Shown: positions 4,562 through 31,646, counted from the first letter of the stretch. The stretch: 64,000 nt of DNA from Bacillota bacterium (GCA_030706025.1 JAUZPJ010000001.1:1122-65121); one strand, 5' to 3'. Notes: generated from the sequence alone by a model not told the origin. Program-made: numbers and translations.

Positions 4562-5389
4562 TTATATCGCTGAATACTTATCATACATGTTCATTTTGGT
4601 TTGCTCATCGAGCATTGCATATCGTTTAGTTGTGTCTGGTCTTGCGTGTCCCAACTCATCCTGGATAAAACCAAGATCGGCACCATTCTTGTAAAGATTA
4701 GTCGCGAATGTGTGACGCATCACGTGGGGAGTGACCTTTGCCCGTAGACCGGATGCTAAACCCATTTGTTTGACCTGTAGCTCGACAGAGCGTATTGAAA
4801 GCCTCTTGCCATAGCGATTAATAAACAAAGCTGGATTTTCATCGGTCCTGGGGGAAAGATAAGCAATCAGACAGAACTTAGCGATTACCGAGAAATGCAC
4901 GAGACGTTCTTTGTTGCCCTTTCCTCGTACCTTTATTCGACGGAAGTTCATGTCTAGATCATCTCGATTAAGCTGGATCATCTCGCTAATCCTCATTCCG
5001 GAAGAGACCAAGAGCTCGAGGATAGCCTGATTTCGGATACTCTTTTCATGGAATCTCAGGCGGTCGAAATCTTCTTTGGTTAATGCCTTAGGAAGCAAAA
5101 CCGCTTCCTTGGGAGTCTTGATTTTGCGCGTGGGGTTCTTCTCTAGGTACTCTTCATCAACTAACCAAGTGTAAAATGCTTTGACAGTGCTTATTTTCCG
5201 AGCTATTGAGTTTTGAGACATATTCTGAAATTGAAGTAAGTATTGACGCAGGTCGTTTGTTGTAGCTTTAACCGTAGGGATATCAAGGTAATTCGCAAGC
5301 TTAACCAGTTCACGTTTGTATTGATCTAAGGTACCGGGTGCCAGTCCATCCAATTTACGGGCTATTAAAAATTCTATGACGTATTTCAT
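4562..5389 (-). CDS. XerC/D-like tyrosine recombinase (no arm-binding domain)
   Basis: Catalytic motifs SGMRISE, GKGNKER, HVMRH, LGH...TKRY; N-terminal SAM-like domain. Confidence 0.95.
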   Translation of the reverse strand: MKYVIEFLIARKLDGLAPGTLDQYKRELVKLANYLDIPTVKATTNDLRQYLLQFQNMSQNSIARKISTVKAFYTWLVDEEYLEKNPTRKIKTPKEAVLLPKALTKEDFDRLRFHEKSIRNQAILELLVSSGMRISEMIQLNRDDLDMNFRRIKVRGKGNKERLVHFSVIAKFCLIAYLSPRTDENPALFINRYGKRLSIRSVELQVKQMGLASGLRAKVTPHVMRHTFATNLYKNGADLGFIQDELGHARPDTTKRYAMLDEQTKMNMYDKYSAI

Positions 5390-5800: not shown

Positions 5801-6709
5801 TTGAATTTAGGTCAAATTCGTGATCTTACACTTAAACTTGTAAATAGTTATAGTGCTGATGGAGTACAACTTCCCTTGTCTGATACGGCAGATATTCGCC
5901 TTGCTTTCAACGATTTCCTAAACACCGCGTACAACAAAGCGATCCAGTATGATCCTGTTGAAGCTGTATTCTCAATCACTCAAAATCCAATTCCTAATCT
6001 CCTAAATGTTTATGATTCGTTCAATTTAAAACAACATCTTGACGAAGATATCATCGTTTCCGCAATAGGAGTTAAGGCTTATTATTTTGAAGTAGATCAC
6101 CCTGCAAATGTCTATCTTGAAGAAAATATCAATGGAGTATGGATCAATCTAGCTACAGTAGTGGTTACTGGAATAGCGTCATTCACAGCTTATAGTGGTT
6201 TAATAACTCCATCGAATATAGCAAACACTGTTAGAATGCGCTTCTCAGGTAGTTATCCCTATAACATTAGGAGAACTGCTCTTTATGGGTATACTTTTGC
6301 ATCCTCAGCAGACATACCGAAGTTTCAACCATATATCTCTTATCCGTTACCGAGTGATTATATTCGACTTAATAAGTTGGTTCAGAACTCTGATAATCGA
6401 TTGCATCAAACAATGATTGATTATAGCATTGAGAAACGTTCGTTAGTTATTAACTATTTTTACTCAGGTTCCTTTGATGCTTATTACTTTAAACGTCCAG
6501 ATCCCTTAGTTTTAGATACAGATGTGCCAGAAATTCAAGTACAGAATCACAATTATTTGGCTTATTTCGCGGCTGGTCAATGGTTATTCAGTAATGGGCA
6601 ACAAGCAAATGGTATTGTCCTTTTGAATCTCTTTGACGGGTTCATGCGAGAGATTACTCCTGCGATTGATGAAGTAAATTCGAGTATAGTCAATGCGAAT
6701 AACTGGTGA
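5801..6709 (+). CDS. Head-tail adaptor / tubular tail protein (P22 gp4-like)
   Basis: TTG start after AAAGGAGG (ORF track starts 5759); YPLPSDY and PEI...H..LAYFAA motifs; lies before the stabilisation protein. Confidence 0.6.
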   Translation: MNLGQIRDLTLKLVNSYSADGVQLPLSDTADIRLAFNDFLNTAYNKAIQYDPVEAVFSITQNPIPNLLNVYDSFNLKQHLDEDIIVSAIGVKAYYFEVDHPANVYLEENINGVWINLATVVVTGIASFTAYSGLITPSNIANTVRMRFSGSYPYNIRRTALYGYTFASSADIPKFQPYISYPLPSDYIRLNKLVQNSDNRLHQTMIDYSIEKRSLVINYFYSGSFDAYYFKRPDPLVLDTDVPEIQVQNHNYLAYFAAGQWLFSNGQQANGIVLLNLFDGFMREITPAIDEVNSSIVNANNW

Positions 6710-6740
6710 TAATATTCCCAAAATGCGGTATAATATAGGA

Positions 6741-6808
6741 GTGGGATAGTGATAGCTACACGACAAGCGAGTTTCCTAGCTCGTTTCCCACATTGAATTA
6801 CTAGGAAA
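6741..6808 (+). ncRNA. Structured 5' leader RNA (three-way junction plus pseudoknot) of HNH gene 1
   Basis: TATAAT 6729-6734; GTGGGA/TCCCAC; AAGCGAG/CTCGTTT with loop TTTCCTAG complementary to CTAGGAAA 6801-6808. Confidence 0.6.
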
Positions 6809-6836
6809 AAGAAAACCTTTAGGAGGGTTATTTATT

Positions 6837-7967
6837 ATGTCCGAAATGAAAACATGCACTACTTGTGGAGATGAATTCCCGGTTACCATTGAGTATTTTA
6901 GGAAAAGTAAACGAAATAAAGATGGTCTTAAAAATGAATGTAAAAATTGTTCAAAGGCAAAAGACAAATCATATCGTGAAGCAAACAGAGTAATAATAAA
7001 AGAGCGAAATAGGTTGTTCTATGTAGATAACAAAGAATATATCGATGCTAGGAATAAAAAATATGTTCAATCTAATAAAGAAGCGGTCGCGGAAAGGATG
7101 AGAAAGTATCAACTGAAAAATAAGGAATCTATTTCTAAATATCAAAAACAACGTTACAAACATAACAAAGAATTATTTCCAGAAAAACAGAAATTATATC
7201 GTCTTGAAAATAAAGAATCTATTCGTGAAAATTCAAGAAGGTATCGATTAAAAAATAGGGACACTGAATTGAAAAGGCTTAGTCTTTATCGAGAGAATAA
7301 TAGAGCTTCATTGGTTGAAAAAGGAAGGATATACCGATTAGAAAATAAAGTTATTATTCGCGAAAAGCAAAAGAAACGGCAAATAGAAAACAAAGATGCT
7401 ATTCGTGAATACAGCAAAGAATATCATCGAGTTAACAGGGAATCAATCGCTAAAAAGACTAGGATATACTATCAAGCAAACAGGGATTCGATCATTAGAT
7501 ATGTTAAGAGTTACTACCAAAGAAATAAAGAAGTTATCGCAGAAAAAGGAAAGATATATTACAAAAAGAACAGAGAACATATCGCAAAATACGCCAAACA
7601 ATACGCAAAAGATCATAGGGAAGAATGTTCCTTGCGTGGACAACGTTATGAAGCGAAGAAGCGCAAACTTCCAAGCACTTTAACTATTGAGCAATGGGAA
7701 AATGCTAAGTTATATTTTGGCCACAAATGTGCATATTGCGATGGAATTTTTCCATTAGCTAGGGAACATTTTATACCTGTAGACAATGGCGGAGAACTAA
7801 CTAAAGATAATATTATCCCCGCTTGTAGAAGTTGCAATAGTAGCAAAAACAACAAAGAGGCTATATCCTGGTTTAGGCGTCAACCTTTTTACTCCAAGGA
7901 CAAGGAAGACAAGATACTAAATTACTTATGCTACAAAAACCAAAAACAACAACTTAGTATATTTTAA
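6837..7967 (+). CDS. Free-standing HNH endonuclease with N-terminal Zn finger and long helical repeat region
   Basis: CxxC..CxxC N-terminus; about 15-aa K/R/Y repeats; CAYC..EHFIP..GG..NIIPACRSCN HNH motif; ends QQLSIF. Confidence 0.9.
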   Translation: MSEMKTCTTCGDEFPVTIEYFRKSKRNKDGLKNECKNCSKAKDKSYREANRVIIKERNRLFYVDNKEYIDARNKKYVQSNKEAVAERMRKYQLKNKESISKYQKQRYKHNKELFPEKQKLYRLENKESIRENSRRYRLKNRDTELKRLSLYRENNRASLVEKGRIYRLENKVIIREKQKKRQIENKDAIREYSKEYHRVNRESIAKKTRIYYQANRDSIIRYVKSYYQRNKEVIAEKGKIYYKKNREHIAKYAKQYAKDHREECSLRGQRYEAKKRKLPSTLTIEQWENAKLYFGHKCAYCDGIFPLAREHFIPVDNGGELTKDNIIPACRSCNSSKNNKEAISWFRRQPFYSKDKEDKILNYLCYKNQKQQLSIF

Positions 7968-7978
7968 AAGCTCGAATT

Positions 7979-8004
7979 AAGCACTCCAAAAGGGGTGCTT
8001 TTTC
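7979..8004 (+). terminator. Intrinsic terminator after HNH 1
   Basis: AAGCACTCC-AAAA-GGGGTGCTT followed by T-tract. Confidence 0.7.
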
Positions 8005-8029
8005 TATGCCATGAAAGGACGGTGAAATA

Positions 8030-9847
8030 ATGGCACAACTCAAAATTCCGCGTTTTGCCAACACCCAACGTGAGCTAATCTATTCCGATTTTTCTTCTGG
8101 TTTGAATTATAAAGATAATCCTTCATTGATCAAACCTAGTCAAAGTCCAGAAATGCAGAATGTTCGCATCCGTGATGGTACGGTAGGAAAACGCCCAGGT
8201 TACAAACGCCTATACCCTACTTCGCTTGGCACTGGACAAGTAAATGGAATTGGCATCTATCGCAAGGCTAACGGAACAACTTACCGGCTTATTTGTCATA
8301 GCACAAATATCTATACACAATCAGGAAGTTCACAACCTGTCCTATTAAAGAGTGGTATTGCAAACGCAAGGTCCGCTTTTTTTACGTTAAACGACAATTT
8401 CTTCATCCTAAACGGGGTAAACTTTCTTGTATACGATGGGTCTACATGCGCTGATGTTGTTGGATATATTCCAACGGTTTTAGTTGGTAGGAGTCCATCA
8501 GGGGCACCAAATGCAGGTACTATAAATGAGAAATTCAATCTTTTGAGTGCGGGATTTAAAATCTCGTTCTCAGCGGATGGAACCTCTACGACTTATGCGC
8601 TTCCATATACTAGCCTTGATGCGACGACCATGGTAGCTGTGGTCAATGGAGTGAATAAGGCAGAAACAACTGATTTTACAGTGAATCGCACAACAGGAGT
8701 AGTAACCTTTAATGTCGCCCCAACCACTGGCACAAACAATGTAATTATAACTGCTTACAAGGCATCCCTAACTCATCCTGAGTATATTAAGAACTGCACT
8801 ATTGCAACAGTTTATGGTGGTAAAACAAGTGCAACTGTATTTTTTTCGGGCAATCCCAACTTTCCAGACCAAGTATGGCACAGTCGCTTATATGGGAGTA
8901 ATTATTCGGCAGACTATTGGCCTGATGATGCTTGGCAGAAAGTACCCGGTAATGTTGCAGGACTAGCTCATATCTTTGACCTTCTCTATATTTCACATAG
9001 TAAAGGGCATGGATACTTTTCTTATGTAGATGGCACATCATACCCAATTTTCCCTTATGCAGACATAAACCTTGAGAAAGGTTCGGACATACCAGGAAGC
9101 ATTCAGGAAGTTGATAACACGGTTGTATGTGCTTCTAGTGTTAACGGAGTCCTGCAAGTCCTGAGTAATACGACAGTTAATAATCGTCTATCGGTCAATG
9201 ATGTCAGTGTTCTCATTAATAAAGCAGGAGTTGAGCGTCAGGACTTGGGCTTACTCCGTCAAGCTAATTTACAAAACGCAGTAAGTTACAATTTTGATAA
9301 CTATTACGGTCTGTGTGTCAATAACGTCTGTTATGTTTGGGATTATAAATCAAACGCATGGCTCTACGACACAAATATTCCTGCTTCATGCTTTGCGACG
9401 ATTGATAATACTCTCTGTTTTGGTAGTAATACTGACGGATTGGTCTATCAGTTTGATCCATTAACAATGAATGATGATGGGGTAGCAATAAATTCTTGGT
9501 ATACAACCAGAGAAGAAAATGCAGGAAGTCCAACTAGGATCAAGGTAGTAAATCGCCTTGACTTGATAGCTAAGCCAATGAATAGGTCCTCTGTGAATAT
9601 TCTCTTTCTTTCAAGGCAAAGCAACGGGGATATAACATTGCAATTACAGACAAATGCGTTCTGTTTTGTTAATTTCAACTTTTCCAATTTTACGTTTAAT
9701 ACGTCTTTTTTCCCTGTCCTTAAAAGAAAACGTGTCTCAAAACGTGCGAATTATTTTCAGTTCAAATTCAGTAACAACAATTTAAACGAGGGGATGAGTG
9801 TCATATCTCTCGGCGTTCAATTTGATCAAGGAAGCGAGATGAGATAA
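8030..9847 (+). CDS. Tail stabilisation / nozzle protein (P22 gp10-like beta-propeller)
   Basis: 605 aa; N-terminal FSSGLN...SPEMQNV...GTVGKRPGY pattern typical of podovirus stabilisation proteins. Confidence 0.7.
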   Translation: MAQLKIPRFANTQRELIYSDFSSGLNYKDNPSLIKPSQSPEMQNVRIRDGTVGKRPGYKRLYPTSLGTGQVNGIGIYRKANGTTYRLICHSTNIYTQSGSSQPVLLKSGIANARSAFFTLNDNFFILNGVNFLVYDGSTCADVVGYIPTVLVGRSPSGAPNAGTINEKFNLLSAGFKISFSADGTSTTYALPYTSLDATTMVAVVNGVNKAETTDFTVNRTTGVVTFNVAPTTGTNNVIITAYKASLTHPEYIKNCTIATVYGGKTSATVFFSGNPNFPDQVWHSRLYGSNYSADYWPDDAWQKVPGNVAGLAHIFDLLYISHSKGHGYFSYVDGTSYPIFPYADINLEKGSDIPGSIQEVDNTVVCASSVNGVLQVLSNTTVNNRLSVNDVSVLINKAGVERQDLGLLRQANLQNAVSYNFDNYYGLCVNNVCYVWDYKSNAWLYDTNIPASCFATIDNTLCFGSNTDGLVYQFDPLTMNDDGVAINSWYTTREENAGSPTRIKVVNRLDLIAKPMNRSSVNILFLSRQSNGDITLQLQTNAFCFVNFNFSNFTFNTSFFPVLKRKRVSKRANYFQFKFSNNNLNEGMSVISLGVQFDQGSEMR

Positions 9848-9848
9848 A

Positions 9849-11258
9849 TTGTCATTCACTACGAAAGATTCCTTCGTCTTTGATTTTGCGTCGCAAGTAG
9901 ATTATCCGAATTGGACTCCTGCTCAGACGAAACAGAATTTAAACGCTCGTGGCGAAGAATTAAGGTTAGCATTAAATGCCGTGGTTAATCTACTTAATTC
10001 TGTAAACTCAGGAGCGACAGGAGCGGATAATATTGGGGCGACTGCTCCAACCGGATTGACCGGGGAAACAGTTCAGGCGATTCTTAATTCCTTAAAAACT
10101 GCAATAGATGGAGTTTCGCTAGGTGCTATACCTGATGGTTCCTTAACGGATGCAAAACTTTCCCCTAACTCGAAGAAAACTATTCCTCCCGTGGTAACTA
10201 CAAATGTAGGTAATGCTTATTCTGTAACAGTAACAGGGATAACAGCATTAAGCGATATGTTGCCTTTATGTGTGAAATTCAATGCCGCAAGTACGGGAGC
10301 GATTACGGTCAACCTGAATAACTTTGGTGCGATAAGCGTTGTTGATTATTTTGGTAATGCGGTTACGAATGTCAGAACAAATCTTATTGCTAATTTACGG
10401 TATGATGCCGTGAATCAAAATTTTCAATTACAGGGTAAAGGAGGGGGTGGAAACGCAACTAAAGCACAATTATTAAATGGTGCAACGGCTACGGTAGATT
10501 CGGGACCAATTACAGGAGACATGCCAGAGAATGGGCCTTTGAATTATACGCCTTCTGCTTCTCCGCAAATTATACCGGAAGGACATACAACGGGTGGCAC
10601 TGTCGCTGCAGTAACATTTAATGCAGCTAAGGTTTTAAATGATACAACAATTGCAGGAACTAAAGGGACAATGGTTAATCAACCTGGAACAACTACAGCG
10701 AATAATTGGTATGCTGATGGTGCAGGAACCTTAAATCATTTTATACCTTATGGGGCATATCTGACAGATAGTGGAAGTGGTAGTGGAACCCCTAATGTGA
10801 AAGCATATGATCCTAATTTTATTCCTTCAAATATTCTTATTACTGCTAGAGTTTTTGGATTACAAGGAACTATGATTCCTTTTTCCAATGGTCTTATTGC
10901 GGGAAGCGCACAATATTTAAGTGATACTACCTCTTACAGTAGCACATCAACTTCTTGGACAAAAGTAGGCAAACGATACACTGTCAATTACTCAGGAAGT
11001 ATTCGCTTCTCATTTCAGGGATTCCAAACTGTTGTAGGGCAATTTCAGGTTTATAAAAACGGTGTAGCATTTGGAACATTAAGAAACGGTACTGCTGGTC
11101 AATGGGTTGCATGGACAGAGGATTATACATGTAATGCTGGTGACTATTTTGAAGTCTATGTTGCAAGTGGCACATCCAATGCAAGTTATCCTATTGTTAT
11201 ACAATATACGACGATTAGTTTAGGTAATATGTCTACTCCTGCGGTTACGGCTGTTTAA
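9849..11258 (+). CDS. Tail fibre protein
   Basis: IPDGSLTDAKL motif, LQGKGGGGNAT linker, repeated ITGxM / GTM fibre motifs. Confidence 0.75.
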   Translation: MSFTTKDSFVFDFASQVDYPNWTPAQTKQNLNARGEELRLALNAVVNLLNSVNSGATGADNIGATAPTGLTGETVQAILNSLKTAIDGVSLGAIPDGSLTDAKLSPNSKKTIPPVVTTNVGNAYSVTVTGITALSDMLPLCVKFNAASTGAITVNLNNFGAISVVDYFGNAVTNVRTNLIANLRYDAVNQNFQLQGKGGGGNATKAQLLNGATATVDSGPITGDMPENGPLNYTPSASPQIIPEGHTTGGTVAAVTFNAAKVLNDTTIAGTKGTMVNQPGTTTANNWYADGAGTLNHFIPYGAYLTDSGSGSGTPNVKAYDPNFIPSNILITARVFGLQGTMIPFSNGLIAGSAQYLSDTTSYSSTSTSWTKVGKRYTVNYSGSIRFSFQGFQTVVGQFQVYKNGVAFGTLRNGTAGQWVAWTEDYTCNAGDYFEVYVASGTSNASYPIVIQYTTISLGNMSTPAVTAV

Positions 11259-11276
11259 TAGAGGGAGGTGTAAGGA

Positions 11277-11783
11277 ATGCTTTATAAATATCAATATACG
11301 AATTCAACTGATCGACAACAAATTATTGACGGTAATGCGAATAAATCACTTATCGAGGAAGACAATATTGCCGATGGTAATTTTTTAGTATTTTCGGATC
11401 AAGTAATTGAAGGTGGCGACTTAGGGGTAGTAAAGTCGTTAAAAATATCCCAGATAAATAACCTTTACAATCAAAAACTTGCTGAAGGTTTTACCTCATC
11501 TGCTGGTGGAACCGTGGAATCTTTCGGATATACCCAATCTGACCAGATTAACTTCATGAATGCAGCATTAAAGGTACTTCTAAAAGGCACAACTGCTTTT
11601 CCTATAAATATCTACCAGAAAAATGGTGCGGCTGTTACTTTAGACCAAGCACAGTACAGTCAATTGGTTGATGACATAGCCGGATTCTTTGAACCTCTCA
11701 AGGAAAAACAACACGACTACATTACTCAGGTCAACGCTTGCACAACAATAGACGCAGTTAATGCTATAACGGTGGTGTTCTAA
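11277..11783 (+). CDS. Tail fibre assembly protein (DUF4376-like)
   Basis: Follows the fibre gene; DQINF and C-terminal INACTTIDAVNAI-type signature. Confidence 0.6.
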   Translation: MLYKYQYTNSTDRQQIIDGNANKSLIEEDNIADGNFLVFSDQVIEGGDLGVVKSLKISQINNLYNQKLAEGFTSSAGGTVESFGYTQSDQINFMNAALKVLLKGTTAFPINIYQKNGAAVTLDQAQYSQLVDDIAGFFEPLKEKQHDYITQVNACTTIDAVNAITVVF

Positions 11784-12004
11784 TGGGAAAGTATTTTTAT
11801 AATATCCTTATTGGAATTGACCAACTATGTAACACCATTCTCGGCGGTGATCCGGATGAAACAATCTCCTCAAGAATGGGTAAACACCTGGCAAAACACG
11901 ATTCTCCAATCTCAAACATCTTGTGAATGCTTCTTAATATGATCCAGGAGGATCATTGTGTCAAGGCGATCGAATCTGATAGGGGTAATAACGCAACTCT
12001 TTAG
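11783..12004 (+). CDS. 73-aa phage protein (GGDPDETISSR family) with in-frame UGA at codon 48: candidate selenoprotein, otherwise a pseudogene
   Basis: TAATG coupling; MGKYFYNILIGIDQLCNTILGGDPDETISSRMGKHLAKHDSPISNIL-TGA(11924-26)-MLLNMIQEDHCVKAIESDRGNNATL-TAG; hairpin 11939-11956. Confidence 0.6.
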
Positions 12005-12052
12005 AGAGGCTAACGACCTTTCTTTTCTTATGCTCGAAAGGTGGTCGATTGA

Positions 12053-13147
12053 ATGGCTACTGTAGCCGAACAATTAAGAGATGGAACTATGAGGACTAAT
12101 TATGATGTAACTGATAGAATGGCAAGAGATTTACAGGCTGCAAGTGATAGGGCAACGGCGGCCAATTCTTCTCCTGGAGACATTGGTAGGGGAGATAGGG
12201 ATTATAATTCAAGTTATGCATCCACTCAACCTGTAACTCCTACTTCAACTACGGCAGCGAGCACAACAGCATCCACTACTACCCCAGCAGTTGACTACGT
12301 TTCTCAATACAAAACTCAAGCAGATACCATTGCCAAAGCTTCTGCCGATGCCTTAAAGCCAGTTTATGATAATCAACTCCAAGCAACGATCAATCCCTAT
12401 AAAACTGCTCAAGCTCAGATACCAACACAAACAGCTTCATTAAATAATCAAGCATCTTCGCAAGGCATGGTCAACGCTCAACATATTCGTAACGCATTAG
12501 CACAAATGGGCCTTCTGCAATCAGGAGAATCGGCATCTCAACAACTAGCCAATGATACAGCGACAGCTAATAATATCAATGCAAATAACTTAGCAGCACA
12601 ACAACTTGATGCTTCGTATAACGATAAGATTGCGGCGGCAACAGCTCAGAACGCTCTTGATTATAACAATGCTGTAACTCACGCTTCTGAATTTGCACAA
12701 CAAATGGGATTATCCGAGGCTCAATTGGCGAATACAATCAATCAACAGGGAATTGATAATGCCTATAGGGACAAAGCCTTAGCTCAGTCTGCTTCTCAAT
12801 TTGCCCAACAATTAGGATTATCACAACAACAGTTTAATGCCGGATTATCACAATGGGCGCAAACATACGCGGCTAATCAGGCTCAAAACGCATTTAATAA
12901 TGGAATTGCTGCTTCAAACTTGACAGGATATGTTGCTCCGGTTGTGTCTAATTTATATCCGTCTACATCTTCGAATAACAAAGTTTCATCAAGTGCAAAC
13001 ACTTCATCTTCATCTGCTTCGTTACCTTCTTCCGTTGCCGCTATGTATCCAGGTGCCACTAATGTATCGTCGTTAGGAAATGGTACTTATAAATTTAACG
13101 ATTCTAGCGGAAATTCTGTTTATTATAATGCCGGGGTTGGGAATTAA
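12053..13147 (+). CDS. Internal virion / DNA ejection protein
   Basis: Ala/Gln/Asn-rich helical protein, first of three genes after the tail genes. Confidence 0.55.
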   Translation: MATVAEQLRDGTMRTNYDVTDRMARDLQAASDRATAANSSPGDIGRGDRDYNSSYASTQPVTPTSTTAASTTASTTTPAVDYVSQYKTQADTIAKASADALKPVYDNQLQATINPYKTAQAQIPTQTASLNNQASSQGMVNAQHIRNALAQMGLLQSGESASQQLANDTATANNINANNLAAQQLDASYNDKIAAATAQNALDYNNAVTHASEFAQQMGLSEAQLANTINQQGIDNAYRDKALAQSASQFAQQLGLSQQQFNAGLSQWAQTYAANQAQNAFNNGIAASNLTGYVAPVVSNLYPSTSSNNKVSSSANTSSSSASLPSSVAAMYPGATNVSSLGNGTYKFNDSSGNSVYYNAGVGN

Positions 13148-13199
13148 GAGAGTTATATTAAAACTCTCTTTTCCTATTTCTCAGAAAGGATGATGAAAT

Positions 13200-14516
13200 A
13201 TGGCTCTATATGGACTAGCTGCTGATGTTCAGGCAAATCCGGATCGAAACGTTCTTCTCTATACTCCTGGGAAAACACAATTAACTCCACAGGATGTATT
13301 TCTTGGTGGTCCTGGGACCGGAGTTGATGATAGTCAGCTTAACGGCGCAACAAGAATCTTCGGGAATGATGCTGCTGGAACTCGCGCTGCCCTTAGCCAT
13401 TACGAAGGTGATCTCGCTTCGCAGATTAAAGCGGCCCAGAATACCAATGCTGCTCCAAGGATAGATGCAAACATTGGAATGCCAACGATGGCTAGGCAAG
13501 CTATGGAGATTCAACAAGCTAAGGATAAGATTGCAAATGACCAAACTTCAGCTCAGTTAACGGGTTATTTGTACGGTTCACCGACAATGGCTCAAAAAAC
13601 GTATGATCATGGGGTAGCCCAAGATCAGTTTAATAATGGCATTACTGTTGGGCAATTAATGGGTAGTTACAACGGTTCCCCAACTTTGGCGCAGAAGGCA
13701 CAGGATATCCAAAATGCTCAATTCAGGGCAAGCCAAGCGCAAAATGAAAGTCAGTTCGGAAGGTCATTGGCTATTCAACAACAAAACGCAAATACAAGTG
13801 CTGGTATTTACCCTAATACAAGCACAAGTCCATATTCTTCATCGGTTAATAAGTATGCCGATCAGTATGGTGTGCCGGCTAATCTCATTGATGCGGTCAT
13901 TGGTCAGGAGAGTAGAGGGAATAATGGACTGACTAGTTCAGCAGGGGCAAGTGGATTAATGCAATTGATGCCTGATACTGCTAAGTCCTTGGGGGTTACT
14001 GACACTTCTAATGTGGATCAGAATATTATGGGTGGTACAAAGTATCTCAGTCAACAATTAAGTAAGTATGGCAGCACGGAATTAGCCTTAGCCGCTTATA
14101 ATGCAGGACCAGGAGCCGTGGATAATGCCATAAAACAAGCAGGAAGTACCAATTGGGCAGATGTATCTCAATATCTCCCGACTGAAACGCAGAAATATGT
14201 ACCTTCCGTATTAAATAGCGTTGTGACTTCTAAAGGAAAACAAACTGTAGGTCAAAAGGGAGATGACGCTACAGCTATGGCAATAGAAGCAATCCAGAGC
14301 CAAGCACCGAATATGACCAGAAGTGAGTTCGATAGTGCTATGACCAATATAAAACCTACATGGATCAGGGATGGTGCTAACCTTAAAGCTATTCAGGAAG
14401 CAATTGATAGTGCGGTTACTAAAGATGAGACTCCTGCTGCTATGGCCGCCGCAAAAGCAGCTAACGCAGCAGCTTATAACGCCAAAAAACAATGGTGGGA
14501 AGCGACTGTAAAATGA
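13200..14516 (+). CDS. Ejection protein with soluble lytic transglycosylase (SLT) domain
   Basis: AVIGQESRG, SAGASGLMQLMP and ALAAYNAGPG motifs. Confidence 0.9.
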   Translation: MALYGLAADVQANPDRNVLLYTPGKTQLTPQDVFLGGPGTGVDDSQLNGATRIFGNDAAGTRAALSHYEGDLASQIKAAQNTNAAPRIDANIGMPTMARQAMEIQQAKDKIANDQTSAQLTGYLYGSPTMAQKTYDHGVAQDQFNNGITVGQLMGSYNGSPTLAQKAQDIQNAQFRASQAQNESQFGRSLAIQQQNANTSAGIYPNTSTSPYSSSVNKYADQYGVPANLIDAVIGQESRGNNGLTSSAGASGLMQLMPDTAKSLGVTDTSNVDQNIMGGTKYLSQQLSKYGSTELALAAYNAGPGAVDNAIKQAGSTNWADVSQYLPTETQKYVPSVLNSVVTSKGKQTVGQKGDDATAMAIEAIQSQAPNMTRSEFDSAMTNIKPTWIRDGANLKAIQEAIDSAVTKDETPAAMAAAKAANAAAYNAKKQWWEATVK

Positions 14517-14550
14517 TTTTTTATTCAATTTCCTTATGGGAGGCGAATAG

Positions 14551-17500
14551 ATGGCTTACAACTTAATGGACTATACCAAAAATGATCAATTTAGTAATAA
14601 TAAATATGACCTAATGAAATATGCAAAAGCAAATGAAACCTCATATCCTTCATCTATGGCTGACTTCCGCAAGATTGAAGACACAACACCATTGCCTGAT
14701 ACCCCTCCCGTGAAACAACCTTCTCTATGGGATCAAATAAAGGTTGGAGACATCAAGGGACTGTCGAGTAGAATTCAACCCTTTCACGATGATATGCCTG
14801 ATTCATATTATCAAAATCAAGCTCCACCCATTTCACAATCTGATGCCACTCTTATTCAGCACAATCCTTCTCTATTAGAAACGCTGGGAAATTCCCTGAG
14901 CGGTATCGGTAAGGCTTTTAAATCAGGGGGAGAAAATTCCCCCTTGGTTACCGGTCTTACGAAGGCATTTCTTGGGGATCAATACAATTCAACACCAACA
15001 CCTACTCCATATACCCCACAAAACATTCCTGAAAGTATTGCGTCAGGCATAGGTGAACAGGCGGCAGAATGGCCTTTGTGGATGGCAGGCGGTGCATTAT
15101 CGAAGGGATTAATGGGTGCAGAGAAGGTAGCACCAATAATAAGTAAATTACCAGGCTTAGTACAAACTGGAATTGACGCAGGTTTAACTTATGGTGGAGC
15201 GGTCGCTCCTATGGAAACAGCTTTGCAAGGTGATGGATCACAAGGACTAATAGAGCGTGAAAAACAGGTTCCTGCATTTATGTTAGGAGGCGCGGCATTA
15301 CATGGCGCAGGGCAATTAATAGGCAAAGGTATTGAGGGAGTAGGCAACTACCTTGCTGACCGTAGATTAGGAGAATTAACCCAACCATTAGGTGAAGCAG
15401 TACAGAATCAATTCAATGCTCCTTCTCTCCATGATGTTCAATTAGCTAATCCCATTACGCGCTCAGTTCAACGTAGTGCAGACTTGGGGCCTCTTAGAAT
15501 AAGCGATACTCTTACTCCTGAATACAAAGCAAAGCAAGCTGAGTTAAACGATGTATTTAAAAATAAACCACTCGCTGAACAACCCCTTAATCCGGTTACT
15601 AATACTACATTACAGCAGAACATTGATAACAGTTTAGGTATTGGAAAGTCTACAGAGCAATATCAGGGCTTAGATGTGTTTGGAAAACCTCTTCAAAGTT
15701 ATAAGATCAATAACGATACGCAGAATGCCATTGCTGAGATTTCATCTAAGATGGATCAACAAGTTCAGGATATTGCTTCAAGTCTTAAACAAATGGATAA
15801 TCAAACAAGGGTTGGCAGTATTCGAAATCAAATTAAGGATTTGGGTGGAATATCGCAAGGTAATCCAAATATCTTTGAGGAACAAAAAGTAATTCCAAAT
15901 TGGATTAGAAATAACATTACCGGAAGACCTTTAGATGAGGTAGCGGACACCCTTGGAATGAATTCAGACGAACTATTAGCTGCTATAAGCGATTCTGCAT
16001 ACAAACCAAGGGATTATGTCACCGAGGCCTACAGGATAGCTCACAATGACCCCGAGTATCAAGCATTGAGTAATACGTTGGATACACTAAAGAATGAGTT
16101 ACCCGGGAAGAAAACGCTTCAAGAAGCTATTCCTAAACATGATGGCATTATGACTAAAGCGGATATTAATCTGAAACCAAGAGAACTAACTTCTAAGTCC
16201 GAACAATTGCCAAATGAGCAACTGAAAGGTCTTTCATTATCTGGTAACTTGCCAGTAGATGAACCATTGGCTAGACCCGTGAAGAAATTACAGCCCGTAA
16301 AAAGAGAACCTTTAACTTGGACCAATAGGGATAATATTCCCGTTTCTAATACCGAATCGATTAAGCCGATGCCTGAACAGACGCTGGAAGAAGCTTTAAA
16401 GAGTGGGGATAGTGGGCCGCAAACGATTACTTCGAATGAGACTGTTCCTGCGCCAATTGGAGAACCAAAGCTTGCTACGGAACAACCTTCCATTAACCTC
16501 GCTGATACTAAGATACCCGATACTTCAATTCAACCTTCGGTGGATGATAATACTTTCTGGAACAAGATTAAAAGCGCGTTAGGTTGGAAGGGTAATGTTA
16601 GTGTATTACAAAATGGTATTAAAACAGGTAAGGTAGATATTGGAGAACTTCCAGTAGAAGATCAATCTCGTATTAAGATGAATCTCCAAATGTTTGCAAA
16701 ACCAAATGAATATGTAGATACCAAGCCAATAGATATCAATATTGGAAAAAGTGACAAGCAAACTGCGATTGATACTAGACAGGGGTACGTCGGAAAACTC
16801 AATAAACAAATAGTCACAGGTAATCAGTTAAGAGATACGATGCAACAACTTGCACCAAAGGAACAGGAAGGGATACAACTCTTCCTTGATGCTGGTGGAG
16901 ACATAAATCATCTTAATGAAATGGCCAATAATCCCGATCCTGTGCTGGATAGTTTTATTCCCAATACCAAGACAACGTACATAGAAGCATATAATCAAGC
17001 CCTTAATCTTTCTCCAAATGCTCACAAGGCCGCAGAAATGGCTCAGAAGTATTATGAGGAATCAGGAAAGTATGCCTTAAATACCGGATCAACGAGAAGC
17101 ATCATTGAGAATTATGCTAATCGTATGTGGAAACAAGAACCAAGTGGGAATGTTAAAACAGAGGTTAGGCAACCCGGTCTTAATCCTTTTACATCTCACT
17201 CCAAGCAAAGATTCTATGAGACAATGGGTGAAGGTATTTTAAACGGCAAAGAACCTGCTACACTGAATGCCGGTGATCTACTTAGTATTCACAATCAAGA
17301 AATGGCGAGAGCGAATACAAATAGGGAATTAGCTAAAGCATTAGAATCTAAGGGACTAGGAGTATACCAATTTGAGAAACCAACTCAAGGATTTACTGCA
17401 ATCGATAGCTTAAGCAGGGATATACCAACAATGCACGATGGCAAACCGGCTATAATTCGTCAAAACTTTGTTATTCCTGATGGTATAGCTAAGGGATTGC

Positions 17501-19125
17501 AAGCCATAACTGATCCTAATTATATGGCTAAAGTTGACGCCTTAAGGCATTTGCAAGCATATCAAGGTGTTGTAAAAACTATCGACTTGTCATTTTCCTT
17601 ATTCCATCACATCACACTAGCTGCTGAAGCGTTATATAATTCCAGAGGTGGTTTAGACTTCATTAAAAATTGGGACAAAATGAGCAAACTTGGAAGTGAA
17701 TCCTTTAATGCTGCCGAGAAATGGGGCGCAGAACATGGCTTAATGACCACAAAAATTGATGACAACTATGATATTTTAAGACAATTAGCTGGCAAGGGGA
17801 GTATTATTGACAAGGCGTGGAATTCTGATAATAAACTTGCTAAGGGTGCCGCTGCTATTCCTAAAGGACTTGCTTCATTATCGAATAAAAACTCAGAATT
17901 TTTATTTGGTAAAATTCAAAGATGGCTCAAGGTTATGGACTTCCAAAACAAAGCATCTGAATTCGTGGGAAAGAATCCTAATATGAAAAACGCAGAAGTG
18001 ACAAAGGGATTAAGGCAAATAGCTTCAGAAATCAATGATTCTTATGGTGGTTTGAATTGGAAGGCCATGGGGGTTACTCCAAGCGTTCAAGCCTTGTCTC
18101 GACTTGGATTCTTGGCTCCTGACTGGACGTTTTCTAGCGCAAGAATGCTTGGACGAGCAACCGGTTTAGGAAATATTGAACGTGGGGCCGGTATATTACA
18201 AAATACCAAAAATGTAATTAAGGGTAATCCCGGAAATGCAGCAGCTAGGACAGAATTTGCTGTGGCATTAGTTGGTGGAGCTATTCTTACAGAAGGTCTA
18301 AATAAGATTCTGACGGGTCATTATACGAACCAAAATCCAAAAGGCCATGAGTTGCAAGTGGAGGTTCAACCAGGAGTCTTTATTTCCTTTTTCCGGTCTG
18401 GAATTGGTGATGTTACAAAATGGTCCGCTAATATGCTTACTCAAGGGCCATTAGGTGGTACGATAAATACGATTCAAGGAAAAGGTAGTCCTTTGGTTAG
18501 AACTCTCGTAGGGCAATTAGCGAATAAGCAATTTACTGGTGCTCCCATTACGAATTCAAAAAATACTCCATTGCAGAATGATCTAGCAAGAATAAAGGAG
18601 TTGGCGAGTAGTTTTGCTCCTATGCCTTTTGGCATTTCCGGTACTGCAAGATATCTCAAAAGTGGAGATGCTACGCCATTAGGTACGGGATTAACCGGTA
18701 CTGGTGCTGCAACATATTCGAAAGTTAATCCTTTAAACCCTCTAGCCAATCCTTCGAGTGCTTACGCTGGAAACTGGCTAAATGACTTATTATCTCCTTC
18801 TAGTTCTGCGAGTGATGCTCTTATATCTAAGATTAATGCTCAGAACAAAGCGCAGAACAATCAAACGACACTCATTAAGCAATCTTTAGGAAAAGCGTTA
18901 ACAACAGGTGGATCAACCTCTGATGTTTTTTCCAAATACAATGTTCCGGTAAGTGAAAGGTCGCAACTACTAAAGGATGCCAAGAGTGCCATAGTTGAAA
19001 GTCAGAAATCCCCATTGGTTCAGAAGTTTGATAGTCTAAGCAAGTCGGGACAACAGAAGTTCCTGCAAAGTCTTACTTCAAACGAAAGAGCTACCCTGAT
19101 GCAGGAAAAGCCTAAATTAAAATGA
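14551..19125 (+). CDS. Large DNA ejection / injection protein
   Basis: 1524 aa, last structural gene, Gly/Ala-rich hydrophobic segments; internal KMNLQMFAK motif. Confidence 0.6.
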   Translation: MAYNLMDYTKNDQFSNNKYDLMKYAKANETSYPSSMADFRKIEDTTPLPDTPPVKQPSLWDQIKVGDIKGLSSRIQPFHDDMPDSYYQNQAPPISQSDATLIQHNPSLLETLGNSLSGIGKAFKSGGENSPLVTGLTKAFLGDQYNSTPTPTPYTPQNIPESIASGIGEQAAEWPLWMAGGALSKGLMGAEKVAPIISKLPGLVQTGIDAGLTYGGAVAPMETALQGDGSQGLIEREKQVPAFMLGGAALHGAGQLIGKGIEGVGNYLADRRLGELTQPLGEAVQNQFNAPSLHDVQLANPITRSVQRSADLGPLRISDTLTPEYKAKQAELNDVFKNKPLAEQPLNPVTNTTLQQNIDNSLGIGKSTEQYQGLDVFGKPLQSYKINNDTQNAIAEISSKMDQQVQDIASSLKQMDNQTRVGSIRNQIKDLGGISQGNPNIFEEQKVIPNWIRNNITGRPLDEVADTLGMNSDELLAAISDSAYKPRDYVTEAYRIAHNDPEYQALSNTLDTLKNELPGKKTLQEAIPKHDGIMTKADINLKPRELTSKSEQLPNEQLKGLSLSGNLPVDEPLARPVKKLQPVKREPLTWTNRDNIPVSNTESIKPMPEQTLEEALKSGDSGPQTITSNETVPAPIGEPKLATEQPSINLADTKIPDTSIQPSVDDNTFWNKIKSALGWKGNVSVLQNGIKTGKVDIGELPVEDQSRIKMNLQMFAKPNEYVDTKPIDINIGKSDKQTAIDTRQGYVGKLNKQIVTGNQLRDTMQQLAPKEQEGIQLFLDAGGDINHLNEMANNPDPVLDSFIPNTKTTYIEAYNQALNLSPNAHKAAEMAQKYYEESGKYALNTGSTRSIIENYANRMWKQEPSGNVKTEVRQPGLNPFTSHSKQRFYETMGEGILNGKEPATLNAGDLLSIHNQEMARANTNRELAKALESKGLGVYQFEKPTQGFTAIDSLSRDIPTMHDGKPAIIRQNFVIPDGIAKGLQAITDPNYMAKVDALRHLQAYQGVVKTIDLSFSLFHHITLAAEALYNSRGGLDFIKNWDKMSKLGSESFNAAEKWGAEHGLMTTKIDDNYDILRQLAGKGSIIDKAWNSDNKLAKGAAAIPKGLASLSNKNSEFLFGKIQRWLKVMDFQNKASEFVGKNPNMKNAEVTKGLRQIASEINDSYGGLNWKAMGVTPSVQALSRLGFLAPDWTFSSARMLGRATGLGNIERGAGILQNTKNVIKGNPGNAAARTEFAVALVGGAILTEGLNKILTGHYTNQNPKGHELQVEVQPGVFISFFRSGIGDVTKWSANMLTQGPLGGTINTIQGKGSPLVRTLVGQLANKQFTGAPITNSKNTPLQNDLARIKELASSFAPMPFGISGTARYLKSGDATPLGTGLTGTGAATYSKVNPLNPLANPSSAYAGNWLNDLLSPSSSASDALISKINAQNKAQNNQTTLIKQSLGKALTTGGSTSDVFSKYNVPVSERSQLLKDAKSAIVESQKSPLVQKFDSLSKSGQQKFLQSLTSNERATLMQEKPKLK

Positions 19126-19145
19126 GGATGGTTTTTAACCATCCT

Positions 19146-19313
19146 CTACCGTTCGTAAACTTCATAAATCACTATCGCAACGCAAAAAAATGAAAATACT
19201 CCCCATAATAATGTTATCCAATCGGAGCTCACTTTTGTAAATGGCAGTATCATTGTTAATGTTATTGTTACAAAAAGACCGACAAAGATAAATATGGATT
19301 TATCCTCTGTCAT
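19146..19313 (-). CDS. Small two-TM membrane protein (not in ORF track)
   Basis: MTEDKSIFIFVGLFVTITLTMILPFTKVSSDWITLLWGVFSFFCVAIVIYEVYER; AAGGTG RBS; hairpin at about 19126-19146. Confidence 0.55.
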   Translation of the reverse strand: MTEDKSIFIFVGLFVTITLTMILPFTKVSSDWITLLWGVFSFFCVAIVIYEVYER

Positions 19314-19409
19314 TTTTAACACCTTCTCTTATGTTCTTTTTTATGTAACAGTTTACCACTTATTGCTTAATTATGGTATAAGAGGAGTGGTTATTATGGT
19401 ATAATATAT

Positions 19410-19477
19410 ATGGGAGAACAGGGAGTCATGACCCTGTTAAAACGGTTTTCCTGACCGGCTCCCCATTAAAACAGGAA
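19410..19477 (+). ncRNA. Structured 5' leader RNA (three-way junction plus pseudoknot) of HNH gene 2
   Basis: TGnTATAAT 19397-19405; ATGGGAG/CTCCCCAT; AACAGGG/CCCTGTT; CGGT/ACCG with loop TTTCCTG pairing CAGGAA 19472-19477. Confidence 0.6.
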
Positions 19478-19503
19478 CAAATGCTAAGGAGGCGTTTTTT
19501 ATT

Positions 19504-20274
19504 ATGGAAAATTTTAAAGCGTGTTCAAAATGTGGAGAAAGAAAACCTGCGACCAGTGAATATTTTGTTCGTAAAAAAGACTGTAAAGATGGTATTTCCG
19601 GAACGTGCAAGTCTTGTAAGAGTAAACGAGATAAAGAATATCAGGAAAGAAATAAAGAGTCTATAAAAAAACAAAAACAAAGATATATACTTAAAAACAA
19701 AGATAAAAAGGCTGAAGCCGACAGAAAATACTACCTAGAAAATAAGAAATCAATACTAGAGTACAGGAGACAGCATTATTTAAGAAATAAAGAAAAAAGA
19801 AACAATCAAAGTAGGATGTACTACATTAAAAACAAGGAAAAGATTGATGCGTGGCAAATAAAATACCATGAAGATAATAAAGAAAAAATAAGCAAGTACC
19901 GTAGGCAATACGGAATAATTAACAGAGAAACATATAATATGCACGGACATAACCGAAGGGCTAGGGAAAGAAAACTAGTAGCAACATTAACCCAAAAACA
20001 ATGGGAGCAGATTAAGAGTTTGTTTGGCAATCGTTGTGCATATTGTGGGAAGAAAAAGTTCTTGACTAAAGATCATTTTATCTCATTAACAAACAATGGG
20101 GAATTTAGTCATAATAATATAATCCCTGCTTGTCTTAACTGTAATTGTAGTAAAAAGGATAGATCATTCTTTTCCTGGTATCCGACCTTCAAACACTACT
20201 CCAAGCAACGTGAACAGAATATCCTCAAATACTTAGGTTATACCAACGGAATTCAACAATTATCCTTAATTTAA
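19504..20274 (+). CDS. Free-standing HNH endonuclease, paralog of 6837-7967
   Basis: CSKC..CKSC; CAYC..KDHFI..NIIPACLNCN; ends QQLSLI. Confidence 0.9.
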   Translation: MENFKACSKCGERKPATSEYFVRKKDCKDGISGTCKSCKSKRDKEYQERNKESIKKQKQRYILKNKDKKAEADRKYYLENKKSILEYRRQHYLRNKEKRNNQSRMYYIKNKEKIDAWQIKYHEDNKEKISKYRRQYGIINRETYNMHGHNRRARERKLVATLTQKQWEQIKSLFGNRCAYCGKKKFLTKDHFISLTNNGEFSHNNIIPACLNCNCSKKDRSFFSWYPTFKHYSKQREQNILKYLGYTNGIQQLSLI

Positions 20275-20281
20275 TATTTCC

Positions 20282-20314
20282 ATAACACCGTATTCTTGTG
20301 CGGTGTTATTTTTT
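20282..20314 (+). terminator. Intrinsic terminator after HNH 2
   Basis: ATAACACCGTA / TGCGGTGTTAT stem followed by T-tract. Confidence 0.7.
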
Positions 20315-30467: not shown

Positions 30468-31646
30468 TTAGAGGTTTCTCATGAGTTCGCTGAACTTTTG
30501 AGAAGCCTCTTTTTTCATTGTCTTTGTTACGTGCAAGTATACCCTTCTGGTTATTTCATCGTCAGAGTGTCCTAACCTTTCCATAATTTCTTCTAGGCCA
30601 ACTCTTGCTTCAGCTAATAACGATGTATGGGTGTGTCTTAATGAGTGGGGAGTTAAGTTTGTATTTAGTCCTGCAAGTTTAAGCAATCTATTCATTCGAT
30701 TTTCGATCTTCTTGATATATATTGGATAACCATAATTCTTTTCGGTCATAGAAAATATAAAATCTTTATCGTGGTAAACTTTCCTGTGTTCCATTTTTAC
30801 AATCTTTTGGCGAGATTGGTGTAATTCTAGTTCGGCTAAGACAATAGCATCTATTTCTATTATCCGAATGGAACTCTTTGTCTTCGGGGGTAGTAATTGA
30901 TATTTTCTGATGTTGTTTTTCGGATTGTAATAAGTTTTAGTGATACTTATTGTCTGGTTCTCGAAATCAATATCTTTCCATTTCAAAGCACATAATTCTC
31001 CGGCCCTCATACCGGTATAAGCTAAAGTAAGGAAAATTATATAGTCCATTTCAAATCCATTTTCTTTTGCCATTTTTAAAAATGAAGATAGTTCATCTTT
31101 TTCAAGATATTCTGGCACTTCTGTCTCGGATTCTATTTCATCAACTGTTTTTTGGGTTCTAGGTATTATTGCGTATTGAGTAGGATCTACTTTTATATAA
31201 CCCAATTCAACGGCCTTTTTAAAGATCATTCTTCCAGTACAATGAATACCTTCAAGCGTAGTGTGTGCAAGCCCTTTATCTTTAAGGTCATTCAAAGCGG
31301 ATTGATATAACTTTCGGGTAATATTTTTCATCTTATATTTTGCGAAGTAAGCTAAGAGTCTCCCTGACTCATGCTCCCTAACCCTTACGGTACTTACTTT
31401 AACTCTTCCTGTTGCTTGGTATAATCCGAGCCATTCTCCTTTAAAATCTTCAAAAGTTATTTCTGCTTCTTTCACATAGGTACCCTGGTCTAACTCATTC
31501 ATTAGCACGGCTGCAGCAAGCTGTGCTTCTTTTTTTGTCTTAAATCCCCCCTTGCTTCGCTGGTCCCTATCTCCTGTATCTGGTTTTATTCCTACGTCAA
31601 TTGTGTAGTACCACGTTTTGCCACGTTTTCTGTAATATCCCTTCAT
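30468..31646 (-). CDS. int: Phage integrase (tyrosine recombinase with arm-binding domain)
   Basis: GFKTKKEA arm domain; TGMRAGEL, HSLRHTH, RLGH...VYLH. Confidence 0.96.
   Translation of the reverse strand: MKGYYRKRGKTWYYTIDVGIKPDTGDRDQRSKGGFKTKKEAQLAAAVLMNELDQGTYVKEAEITFEDFKGEWLGLYQATGRVKVSTVRVREHESGRLLAYFAKYKMKNITRKLYQSALNDLKDKGLAHTTLEGIHCTGRMIFKKAVELGYIKVDPTQYAIIPRTQKTVDEIESETEVPEYLEKDELSSFLKMAKENGFEMDYIIFLTLAYTGMRAGELCALKWKDIDFENQTISITKTYYNPKNNIRKYQLLPPKTKSSIRIIEIDAIVLAELELHQSRQKIVKMEHRKVYHDKDFIFSMTEKNYGYPIYIKKIENRMNRLLKLAGLNTNLTPHSLRHTHTSLLAEARVGLEEIMERLGHSDDEITRRVYLHVTKTMKKEASQKFSELMRNL

What the first reader, a model, noticed from the sequence alone, without database searches (positions are those of the whole stretch)
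6729..20314. Two autonomous HNH modules share a conserved pseudoknotted leader RNA
Seen: both paralogous HNH genes (6837-7967, 19504-20274) have the layout TATAAT promoter, about 68-nt RNA, RBS, HNH, terminator. The leaders differ in sequence but share one fold: an outer stem (GTGGGA/TCCCAC; ATGGGAG/CTCCCCAT), hairpin P2, and hairpin P3 whose loop TTTCCT(A)G pairs with a downstream CTAGGAAA or CAGGAA. Both P2 loops contain a self-complementary hexamer (TAGCTA; TCATGA), which could form kissing dimers. Known: some HNH-containing nucleases use an upstream ncRNA (IscB with omegaRNA/HEARO), but these proteins show no RuvC domain. Inference: an uncharacterised RNA-plus-HNH mobile unit. The RNA could be a translational switch, an antitoxin-like RNA, or a cofactor bound by the long basic helical region.
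Basis: partly seen in the sequence, partly recalled or inferred. Interest (0 to 1): 0.8.

Follow-up and report, generated by a model that had tools for sequence, protein, structure and literature searches.

The report
Self-pairing int-alpA leader before phage nucleases
Both selfish DNA-cutting genes of this phage begin with a real folded RNA leader, a divergent form of the catalogued but untested int-alpA family, which likely throttles translation and whose self-complementary hairpin loop suggests that two copies may pair to sense their own abundance.

Summary
The leaders (6741-6829; 19410-19497) share a covarying three-way junction, a pseudoknot and a fourth hairpin carrying the ribosome-binding site. 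A model built without them finds both.

They are not an HNH-specific unit. The RNA is a Firmicutes branch of Rfam int-alpA (RF02996): the window copies miss the cut-off, but 4 of 14 leaders from the same HNH family pass it. It also heads GIY-YIG, NUMOD4/AP2-HNH, other nuclease-like and antirepressor genes. Only 33 of 114 close HNH relatives carry it; 36 instead have a small divergent gene, ribbon-helix-helix-like in the 9 scanned. A guide or cofactor role is therefore unlikely.

The P3 loop covaries with two downstream sites, one over the Shine-Dalgarno sequence (53 of 96 elements, 3.8 expected), so it is likely a translational brake. This scan reported that two-site leader on other DNA many times.

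What I did not see in the earlier notes: the P2 loop is palindromic in 55 of 77 distinct hairpins (16 hexamers; null 7.3), and several exceptions carry the GACG kissing tetraloop. The rule is weaker in a second branch. Dimerisation is inferred, not tested.

The parts
6706..6734 (+). sigma-A-type promoter of module 1 (-35 overlaps the stop codon of the upstream gene; -10 TATAAT)
   Evidence: 10 of 12 matches; TATAAT lies 5-14 nt before P1 in the family (partly by construction of the pattern)
6741..6791 (+). leader 1 core: three-way junction P1/P2/P3 (int-alpA-like)
   Evidence: 77.8 bits, model built without it
6753..6758 (+). palindromic P2 loop TAGCTA (predicted kissing loop)
6772..6779 (+). 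P3 loop L3 (TTTCCTAG), complementary to sites A and B
6801..6808 (+). site A, pseudoknot partner of L3
6814..6829 (+). hairpin P4 with site B and the Shine-Dalgarno sequence in its loop
   Evidence: (helix 4: 4 of 4 pairs with two-sided change)
6837..7967 (+). HNH endonuclease 1, 376 aa: Cys4 module, long basic helical repeats, HNH domain
7979..8005 (+). intrinsic terminator of module 1
19397..19405 (+). extended -10-like promoter (TGGTATAAT) of module 2
   Evidence: sequence; not listed by the -35/-10 scan
19410..19466 (+). leader 2 core, long-armed variant; P2 loop holds TCATGA (19426-19431); L3 19447-19453
   Evidence: 29.1 bits
19472..19477 (+). site A of leader 2
19479..19497 (+). hairpin P4 of leader 2 with site B and the Shine-Dalgarno sequence in its loop
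19504..20274 (+). HNH endonuclease 2, 256 aa, same architecture with fewer helical repeats
20282..20314 (+). intrinsic terminator of module 2

Best explanation
Each HNH gene sits in an optional, self-contained cassette whose 5' leader is an int-alpA-family RNA that likely acts as a cis translational brake: its P3 loop matches two downstream sites, and would leave the ribosome-binding site open when paired with the near site A and block it when paired with site B over the Shine-Dalgarno sequence. Shown: the fold, its covariation, the two covarying sites, the palindromic P2 loop, the optional nature of the cassette, and the mutual exclusion of this RNA and a divergent ribbon-helix-helix gene. 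Inferred: the nucleases are free-standing homing endonucleases that must be kept scarce; site A is transcribed first and captures L3 (ON); the switch to B (OFF) is most likely promoted when two leaders meet through their self-complementary P2 loops, so that repression rises with transcript concentration (phage copy number, superinfection). The RNA is not needed for cutting.
For: Covariation of P1-P4. L3 against site A: 4.65 vs 2.75+-0.16 paired nt in permutations; against site B: 5.05 vs 3.36+-0.16 (57 distinct loops, 0 of 2000 permutations as high). Two sites of 5 nt or more in 53 of 96 elements vs 3.8 expected; A starts a median 9 nt after P1, B ends a median 12 nt before the start codon. 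The same holds in an independent branch: 53 of 75 vs 3.1. Downstream genes are unrelated: of 57 scanned, 15 GIY-YIG, 7 PF01844 HNH, 5 HNH_3, 5 CapR/DUF4379/DUF7487, 1 TnsA-like, 3 AntA, 5 zinc-finger/HTH only, 16 no hit. Of 114 close HNH relatives 33 have the RNA and 36 a divergent small ORF; none of the 33 has an RHH-like divergent ORF by eye; 9 of 9 divergent ORFs scanned hit RHH-type or RHH-like families. Empty alleles L342 and L343, and differently filled alleles L344 and L345, exist at site 1. A relative's HNH gene is 96% identical while its flanks are 78-90% identical, and its leader core is replaced. P2 palindromes: 55 of 77 vs null 7.3; terminator control 2 of 27. Precedent: RBS-sequestering hairpins and autorepression limit T4 homing endonucleases (PMC2988022, passages); palindromic and GACG loops drive retroviral leader dimers (PMC7357161, passages).
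Against: No expression, translation or dimer data. L3-A and L3-B duplexes are equally strong on average (-7.7 kcal/mol each; A stronger in 49, B in 33 of 92), and in both window copies A is stronger, so the default state and the trigger cannot be read from sequence. In the GGC-stem branch, which includes members above the Rfam cut-off, six-base palindromes are not enriched (4 of 41 vs 2.9); only four-base ones are (22 vs 10.8, max 20), and 15 of 41 have neither these nor GACG. Several hexamers (TAATTA, ATTAAT, TTATAA) self-pair very weakly (-0.2 to -0.6 kcal/mol). The HNH tree is poorly resolved (7 of 105 branches supported), so the intermixing of RNA and RHH labels is suggestive only. My automatic labelling misses some divergent genes, so the 'none' class (37) is inflated.
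Confidence: 0.62

Rival explanations
1. Purely intramolecular timer: L3-A forms first during transcription and allows a short burst of translation, then the RNA refolds to an L3-B loop-loop pairing. The P2 palindrome is structural or incidental.
For: Order A before B and equal duplex strengths; B sits in a hairpin loop; weak palindromes in the second branch.
Against: It does not explain 16 different palindromic hexamers, each change needing two coordinated substitutions, nor the GACG class.
Confidence: 0.2
2. c4-like antisense immunity: the P1-P3 core is released from the leader as a small RNA and silences site B of other copies in trans (superinfecting phage, paralogues), with the P2 palindrome as a second contact.
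For: Stable 5'-end stem at the predicted start site; leaders also precede AntA antirepressors, as c4 does in P1 (PMC8198154, passages); Rfam types int-alpA as sRNA.
Against: No terminator or visible processing signal between core and site A; a relative carries two leaders with the same site A on one contig, so specificity groups are not kept apart.
Confidence: 0.1
3. The P2 palindrome works as DNA, as an operator for a dimeric repressor or a methylation site just downstream of the promoter.
For: It lies about 12-20 bp after the predicted start site; the alternative cassette uses an RHH repressor.
Against: One palindrome (AGCT core) goes with five protein classes and one HNH family uses 12 palindromic cores; only 3 of 77 P2 arms are perfect DNA palindromes; 43 of 364 stem pairs are G-U; unpaired 5' purines break the dyad.
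Confidence: 0.05
4. One reading: the RNA is bound by the basic helix and is needed for, or aims, DNA cleavage, as omegaRNA does for IscB.
For: Long basic helix; RNA directly upstream.
Against: Absent from most close relatives (33 of 114 have it); shared with GIY-YIG, antirepressor and other genes; core replaced in a 96%-identical allele at the same site; the same L3 occurs at four loci whose flanks show no similarity to the window's; longest leader match to empty alleles 8-10 nt, the 10-nt one on the opposite side of the locus from the junction.
Confidence: 0.03

Closest known systems
int-alpA RNA motif, Rfam RF02996 (typed 'Gene; sRNA'; that it comes from Weinberg et al. 2017, PMC5737381, is recalled: the main text does not name it and the supplement could not be read)
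   Same: Three-way junction with UAG and GA(A/C)AAG junction strands, P3 loop complementary to a 3' tail, about 70 nt. Leaders of the same HNH family score 37-42 bits against a cut-off of 35.8; my model finds 17 of 20 GGC-branch loci at the motif position.
   Different: The window copies are below cut-off (no hit at E<10). This branch has a GGGA/UCCC stem, a GACAAG junction and long-arm variants. The Rfam model stops at site A and leaves out P4 and site B. Six-base palindromic loops are typical of this branch only.
RBS-sequestering hairpins and autorepression of T4-type homing endonucleases (I-TevI, segB, mobE; PMC2988022)
   Same: Free-standing endonuclease genes kept low by an RNA structure over the RBS or by a repressor at the promoter.
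   Different: Those are simple hairpins removed by a late promoter that starts inside them; here the promoter lies upstream of the whole element and control would rest on a loop with two partners.
Retroviral dimer initiation loops (HIV-1 DIS; Moloney GACG loops; PMC7357161)
   Same: Six-base palindrome in an apical loop with flanking purines, or a GACG tetraloop, in a 5' leader, linked to masking of a start-site region.
   Different: No homology; a bacterial phage mRNA with no packaging role known; dimerisation untested here.
P1/P7 c4 antisense RNA (PMC8198154; mechanism details recalled)
   Same: RNA at the 5' end of an operon that represses a downstream antirepressor gene.
   Different: No Rfam c4 match; one variable targeting loop, and no evidence of processing.
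IscB / omegaRNA (HEARO), recalled
   Same: An HNH gene with an upstream structured RNA.
   Different: No RuvC, no guide segment; the RNA is dispensable and shared with unrelated genes.

Membership tests
int-alpA RNA (RF02996) | Score at or above the gathering threshold of 35.8 bits for the window copies | tested here: not met
   No hit at gathering, none at E<10, none in the genome search
int-alpA RNA (RF02996) | Homologous leaders of the same family pass the threshold (transitive membership) | tested here: met
   4 of 14 HNH-family loci at 37.2-41.8 bits; 13 of 20 GGC-branch loci; 0 of 40 other GGGA-branch loci, 3 sub-threshold hits; reciprocal hits with my model
int-alpA RNA (RF02996) | Three-way junction P1/P2/P3 with UAG and GAAAA-like junction strands | tested here: met
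   Leader 1 has UAG and GACAAG; leader 2 is a variant (AA and UUAAAA)
int-alpA RNA (RF02996) | P3 loop complementary to the 3' tail | tested here: met
   the Rfam consensus loop and tail are complementary as printed
free-standing HNH homing endonuclease | Intact HNH domain joined to a DNA-binding-like region | tested here: met
   Pfam PF01844 above cut-off; His and two Asn positions conserved in 65 rows; fold matches HNH domains
free-standing HNH homing endonuclease | Optional insertion with empty alleles in related phages | tested here: met
   Site 1: L342 and L343 empty, L344 and L345 filled with another variant; a contig joining 6707 to 8099. Site 2: no clean empty allele among the 6 loci examined
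free-standing HNH homing endonuclease | Cleaves or nicks the empty allele and is over-inherited | not testable with these tools
   Only indirect: gene 96% identical between phages whose flanks are 78-90% identical
IscB/omegaRNA (OMEGA) | Split RuvC domain around the HNH | tested here: not met
IscB/omegaRNA (OMEGA) | Obligate RNA with a variable guide matching the target | tested here: not met
kissing-loop RNA homodimer (DIS-like) | Self-complementary apical loop kept through sequence change | tested here: met
   55 of 77 in this branch; weaker in the GGC branch
kissing-loop RNA homodimer (DIS-like) | Physical dimer formation | not testable with these tools
   Co-folding favours homodimers, but any hairpin gains from an extended duplex, so this does not discriminate

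The most novel reading that the evidence does not exclude
int-alpA leaders are protein-free concentration sensors: two mRNAs recognise each other through retrovirus-like palindromic or GACG kissing loops, and the dimer swaps the P3 loop from its own site A onto the partner's ribosome-binding site. Translation of nucleases, antirepressors and replication genes would then shut down as copy number rises, or when a phage with the same loop code superinfects. The exchangeable P2 and L3 sequences would form a natural two-key address system.
Probability: 0.3. Interest if true: 0.8.

Novelty: new variant of a known kind. Interest (0 to 1): 0.47.

Why it matters
It gives a testable mechanism to an orphan Rfam family; one narrow pattern for its GGC-stem branch alone matches an estimated 2,600 viral-contig stretches, about three quarters of the distinct sampled matches folding as the motif. 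It shows two interchangeable ways (RNA leader or small repressor gene) in which selfish phage nucleases appear to be held in check. If the kissing-loop step is real, it would be a rare case of a bacterial mRNA leader regulated by homodimerisation, and a compact programmable translational switch. As an 'RNA-plus-HNH' system it is not new, and the two-site leader has been noted repeatedly by this scan.

Tried and rejected
Rfam on the window and on each leader: nothing beyond chance hits; the link to int-alpA came only through relatives.

Single-protein locus search found 3 loci; the alignment-based searches were needed.

Guide hypothesis: tested by flank comparison and by matches to empty alleles, rejected. 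Operator hypothesis for P2: disfavoured. P2 hexamer pairing with a second copy in its own mRNA: 6 of 64 vs 4.9 expected, rejected. General palindrome bias of hairpins: P3 control 1 of 101, terminators 2 of 27.

The mean site-A energy printed is invalid (empty regions); it was recomputed. Of 112 model hits, 3 failed to parse, 3 were duplicates and 5 were mis-parsed and dropped before the counts.

Empty allele for site 2: not found among the 6 of 10 amidase-neighbour loci examined. No RNA holder was listed among sequencing runs. The letters of the replaced leader core and the full difference profile of the flank in the related contigs remain unseen, so a co-conversion gradient is not claimed. 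Weak model hits at window 6180-6269 and 20110-20188 (minus strand) are treated as chance. The protein tree was too poorly resolved to count gains and losses.

Literature: 'int-alpA' gave 2 papers that only list or reuse the name; 'Rfam' plus 'int-alpA RNA' gave 0; searches found no description of this leader's function or dimerisation. The Weinberg 2017 supplement could not be read and may describe the pseudoknot or the palindrome.

Full report
Context. The window is a phage or prophage contig (G000:C1) with structural, lysis, integrase and replication genes; named relatives of its HNH proteins are mostly Bacillota. The two HNH genes are 38% identical over the best local alignment. Both have an N-terminal Cys4 module, a basic helical repeat region and a C-terminal HNH domain above the Pfam cut-off, with no RuvC hit. 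The AlphaFold model of the 256-aa protein (65-row alignment, mean pLDDT 94, pTM 0.59) shows helix from residue 36 to 155, and its best structural matches are HNH domains.

Is the RNA real? Yes. Alone they fold only modestly. I collected 210 loci of the protein family with an alignment of 65 proteins and 121 loci with a DNA pattern that leaves P2 and P3 free. An alignment of 42 short-armed leaders, leaving out the window copies and the near-copy L016, gave 96.3% paired cells, two-sided changes in 15 of 19 pairs and in all four helices, 0 of 500 shuffles as high, and 44-52% pairing in slid controls. These controls do not remove relatedness, and the structure was drawn from these sequences. The model from that alignment finds both window leaders (77.8 and 29.1 bits) and nothing else in G000 at E<=0.05 (150 of 545 candidates scored).

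What family? The window copies have no Rfam hit. Three of 20 short family loci gave sub-threshold hits to int-alpA, and 4 of 14 leaders in front of this very HNH family pass its cut-off. A second pattern with a GGC stem retrieved another branch in which 13 of 20 loci pass, and my model finds 17 of those 20 at the motif. The window leaders are therefore a divergent branch of RF02996. They fail its formal score, so I call them a variant. I found no description of its function: see the searches. Of PMC5737381 I saw passages of the main text only; its supplement was unreadable. Earlier notes of this scan reached the same family and the two-site reading on many other genomes; I had written that reading down before looking, and they are not independent support.

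Not an HNH cofactor. Of 57 genes behind leaders found by DNA pattern or beside the query gene (many cut to about 78 aa by short loci), 15 are GIY-YIG, 7 PF01844 HNH, 5 HNH_3, 5 CapR/DUF4379/DUF7487, 1 TnsA-like, 3 AntA, 5 zinc-finger/HTH only and 16 without hit. Among 114 distinct close relatives of the window's HNH, 33 have the RNA, 36 a divergent 35-75-aa ORF, 2 a co-oriented one, 37 neither by my rule and 6 were too short. Nine of 9 divergent ORFs scanned hit RHH or RHH-like families, some below cut-off, including the one beside a third HNH gene in G000 that has no leader. Two of the 33 RNA loci had a divergent small ORF, neither RHH-like by eye. On a poorly resolved tree the RNA label is not clustered (27 changes vs 28.3 shuffled). 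The same L3 occurs at four loci whose flanks show no similarity to the window's.

The cassette is optional and mobile. At site 1, L342 and L343 join the two flanking structural genes directly; L344 and L345 carry a different leader and a different HNH-family gene there. In three of four public DNA runs of one study, a contig has the HNH gene at 96% identity (43-45 differences in 1168), flanks at 78-90%, and positions 6738-6800, the RNA core, replaced by 70 other letters; one low-depth contig joins 6707 to 8099. This fits homing and exchange of the leader (inference). No clean empty allele was found for site 2.

How it likely works. After P1 come an AU-rich linker, site A, and hairpin P4 with site B and the Shine-Dalgarno sequence in its loop. 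From 112 model hits, 101 parsed cleanly and 96 had a start codon. Cognate loops pair with A and with B far better than swapped loops, which also carry anti-SD bases, and two sites of at least 5 nt occur in 53 of 96 elements against 3.8 expected; the GGC branch gives 53 of 75 against 3.1. One loop with two mutually exclusive partners, one over the ribosome-binding site, is the anatomy of a translational switch. Homing endonucleases of T4-like phages are limited by RBS-hiding hairpins or autorepression (PMC2988022, passages), and the RHH alternative points the same way. Which state is the default is not shown: A and B duplexes are equal on average.

The P2 loop. A palindrome of 6 nt or more sits at the P2 apex in 55 of 77 distinct hairpins (null 7.3, maximum 16 in 2000), with 16 different hexamers; P3 hairpins give 1 of 101 and terminators 2 of 27. 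With a slightly wider centre tolerance the 77 split into 57 six-base, 12 four-base, 5 GACG-tetraloop and 3 other loops. Six-base palindromes with flanking purines and GACG loops are the two kissing motifs of retroviral leaders (PMC7357161, passages). The palindrome does not follow the protein family, rarely makes a perfect DNA dyad, sits on stems with G-U pairs and does not recur downstream, which favours RNA self-pairing over a DNA operator. Against: in the GGC branch only four-base palindromes are enriched (22 of 41 vs 10.8), six-base ones are not (4 vs 2.9), and 15 have neither these nor GACG; AU-only hexamers would pair very weakly; sequences are related, so counts overstate independence. 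Two word searches of the scan's notes for this feature returned none holding all the words, and the short summaries shown do not mention it.

Verdict. A real element, ordinary as a homing-endonuclease cassette, a variant of a catalogued orphan RNA, likely a translational brake. The dimer-sensing step is the novel and untested part.

Noticed in passing
L342:3187-3205 and L343:4906-4928: In both empty alleles the 605-aa structural gene appears to start at an ATC codon behind a strong RBS, whereas the filled window allele has ATG.
   Followed up: no
window 6706-6711 and 7979-8005: The cassette's -35 box overlaps the stop codon of the upstream gene, and its terminator lies inside the structural-gene run, so downstream genes would need read-through.
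   Followed up: no
L215:1507-2520 (G000:C445): A third gene of this HNH family in the same genome has a divergent RHH_3 gene instead of the RNA leader.
   Followed up: yes
L279:1433-2620: Three leaders in tandem with the same P2 arm (two seen in full, a third parsed alike) but different L3 loops; two precede AntA antirepressor genes.
   Followed up: partly
L365:1501-1588 (G030): A close relative of leader 2 with half of P2 deleted, followed by a two-codon ORF: probably a decayed cassette.
   Followed up: no
L366-L475 (GGC-stem branch): Many leaders precede genes that look like phage replication initiators, primase-helicases, antirepressors and tail chaperones (labels by eye and recall, not scanned).
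   Followed up: partly
window 4562-5389 (-), 30468-31646 (-), 52194-53087 (-): Three tyrosine-recombinase-like genes in one phage; the first (Pfam-confirmed) sits reversed inside the structural module.
   Followed up: no
window 19124-19322 (-): A 58-aa hydrophobic ORF runs divergently from HNH module 2 and ends at a terminator shared with the 1524-aa gene.
   Followed up: no
L004:5919-6725: Sub-threshold group I intron matches near an HNH cassette.
   Followed up: no
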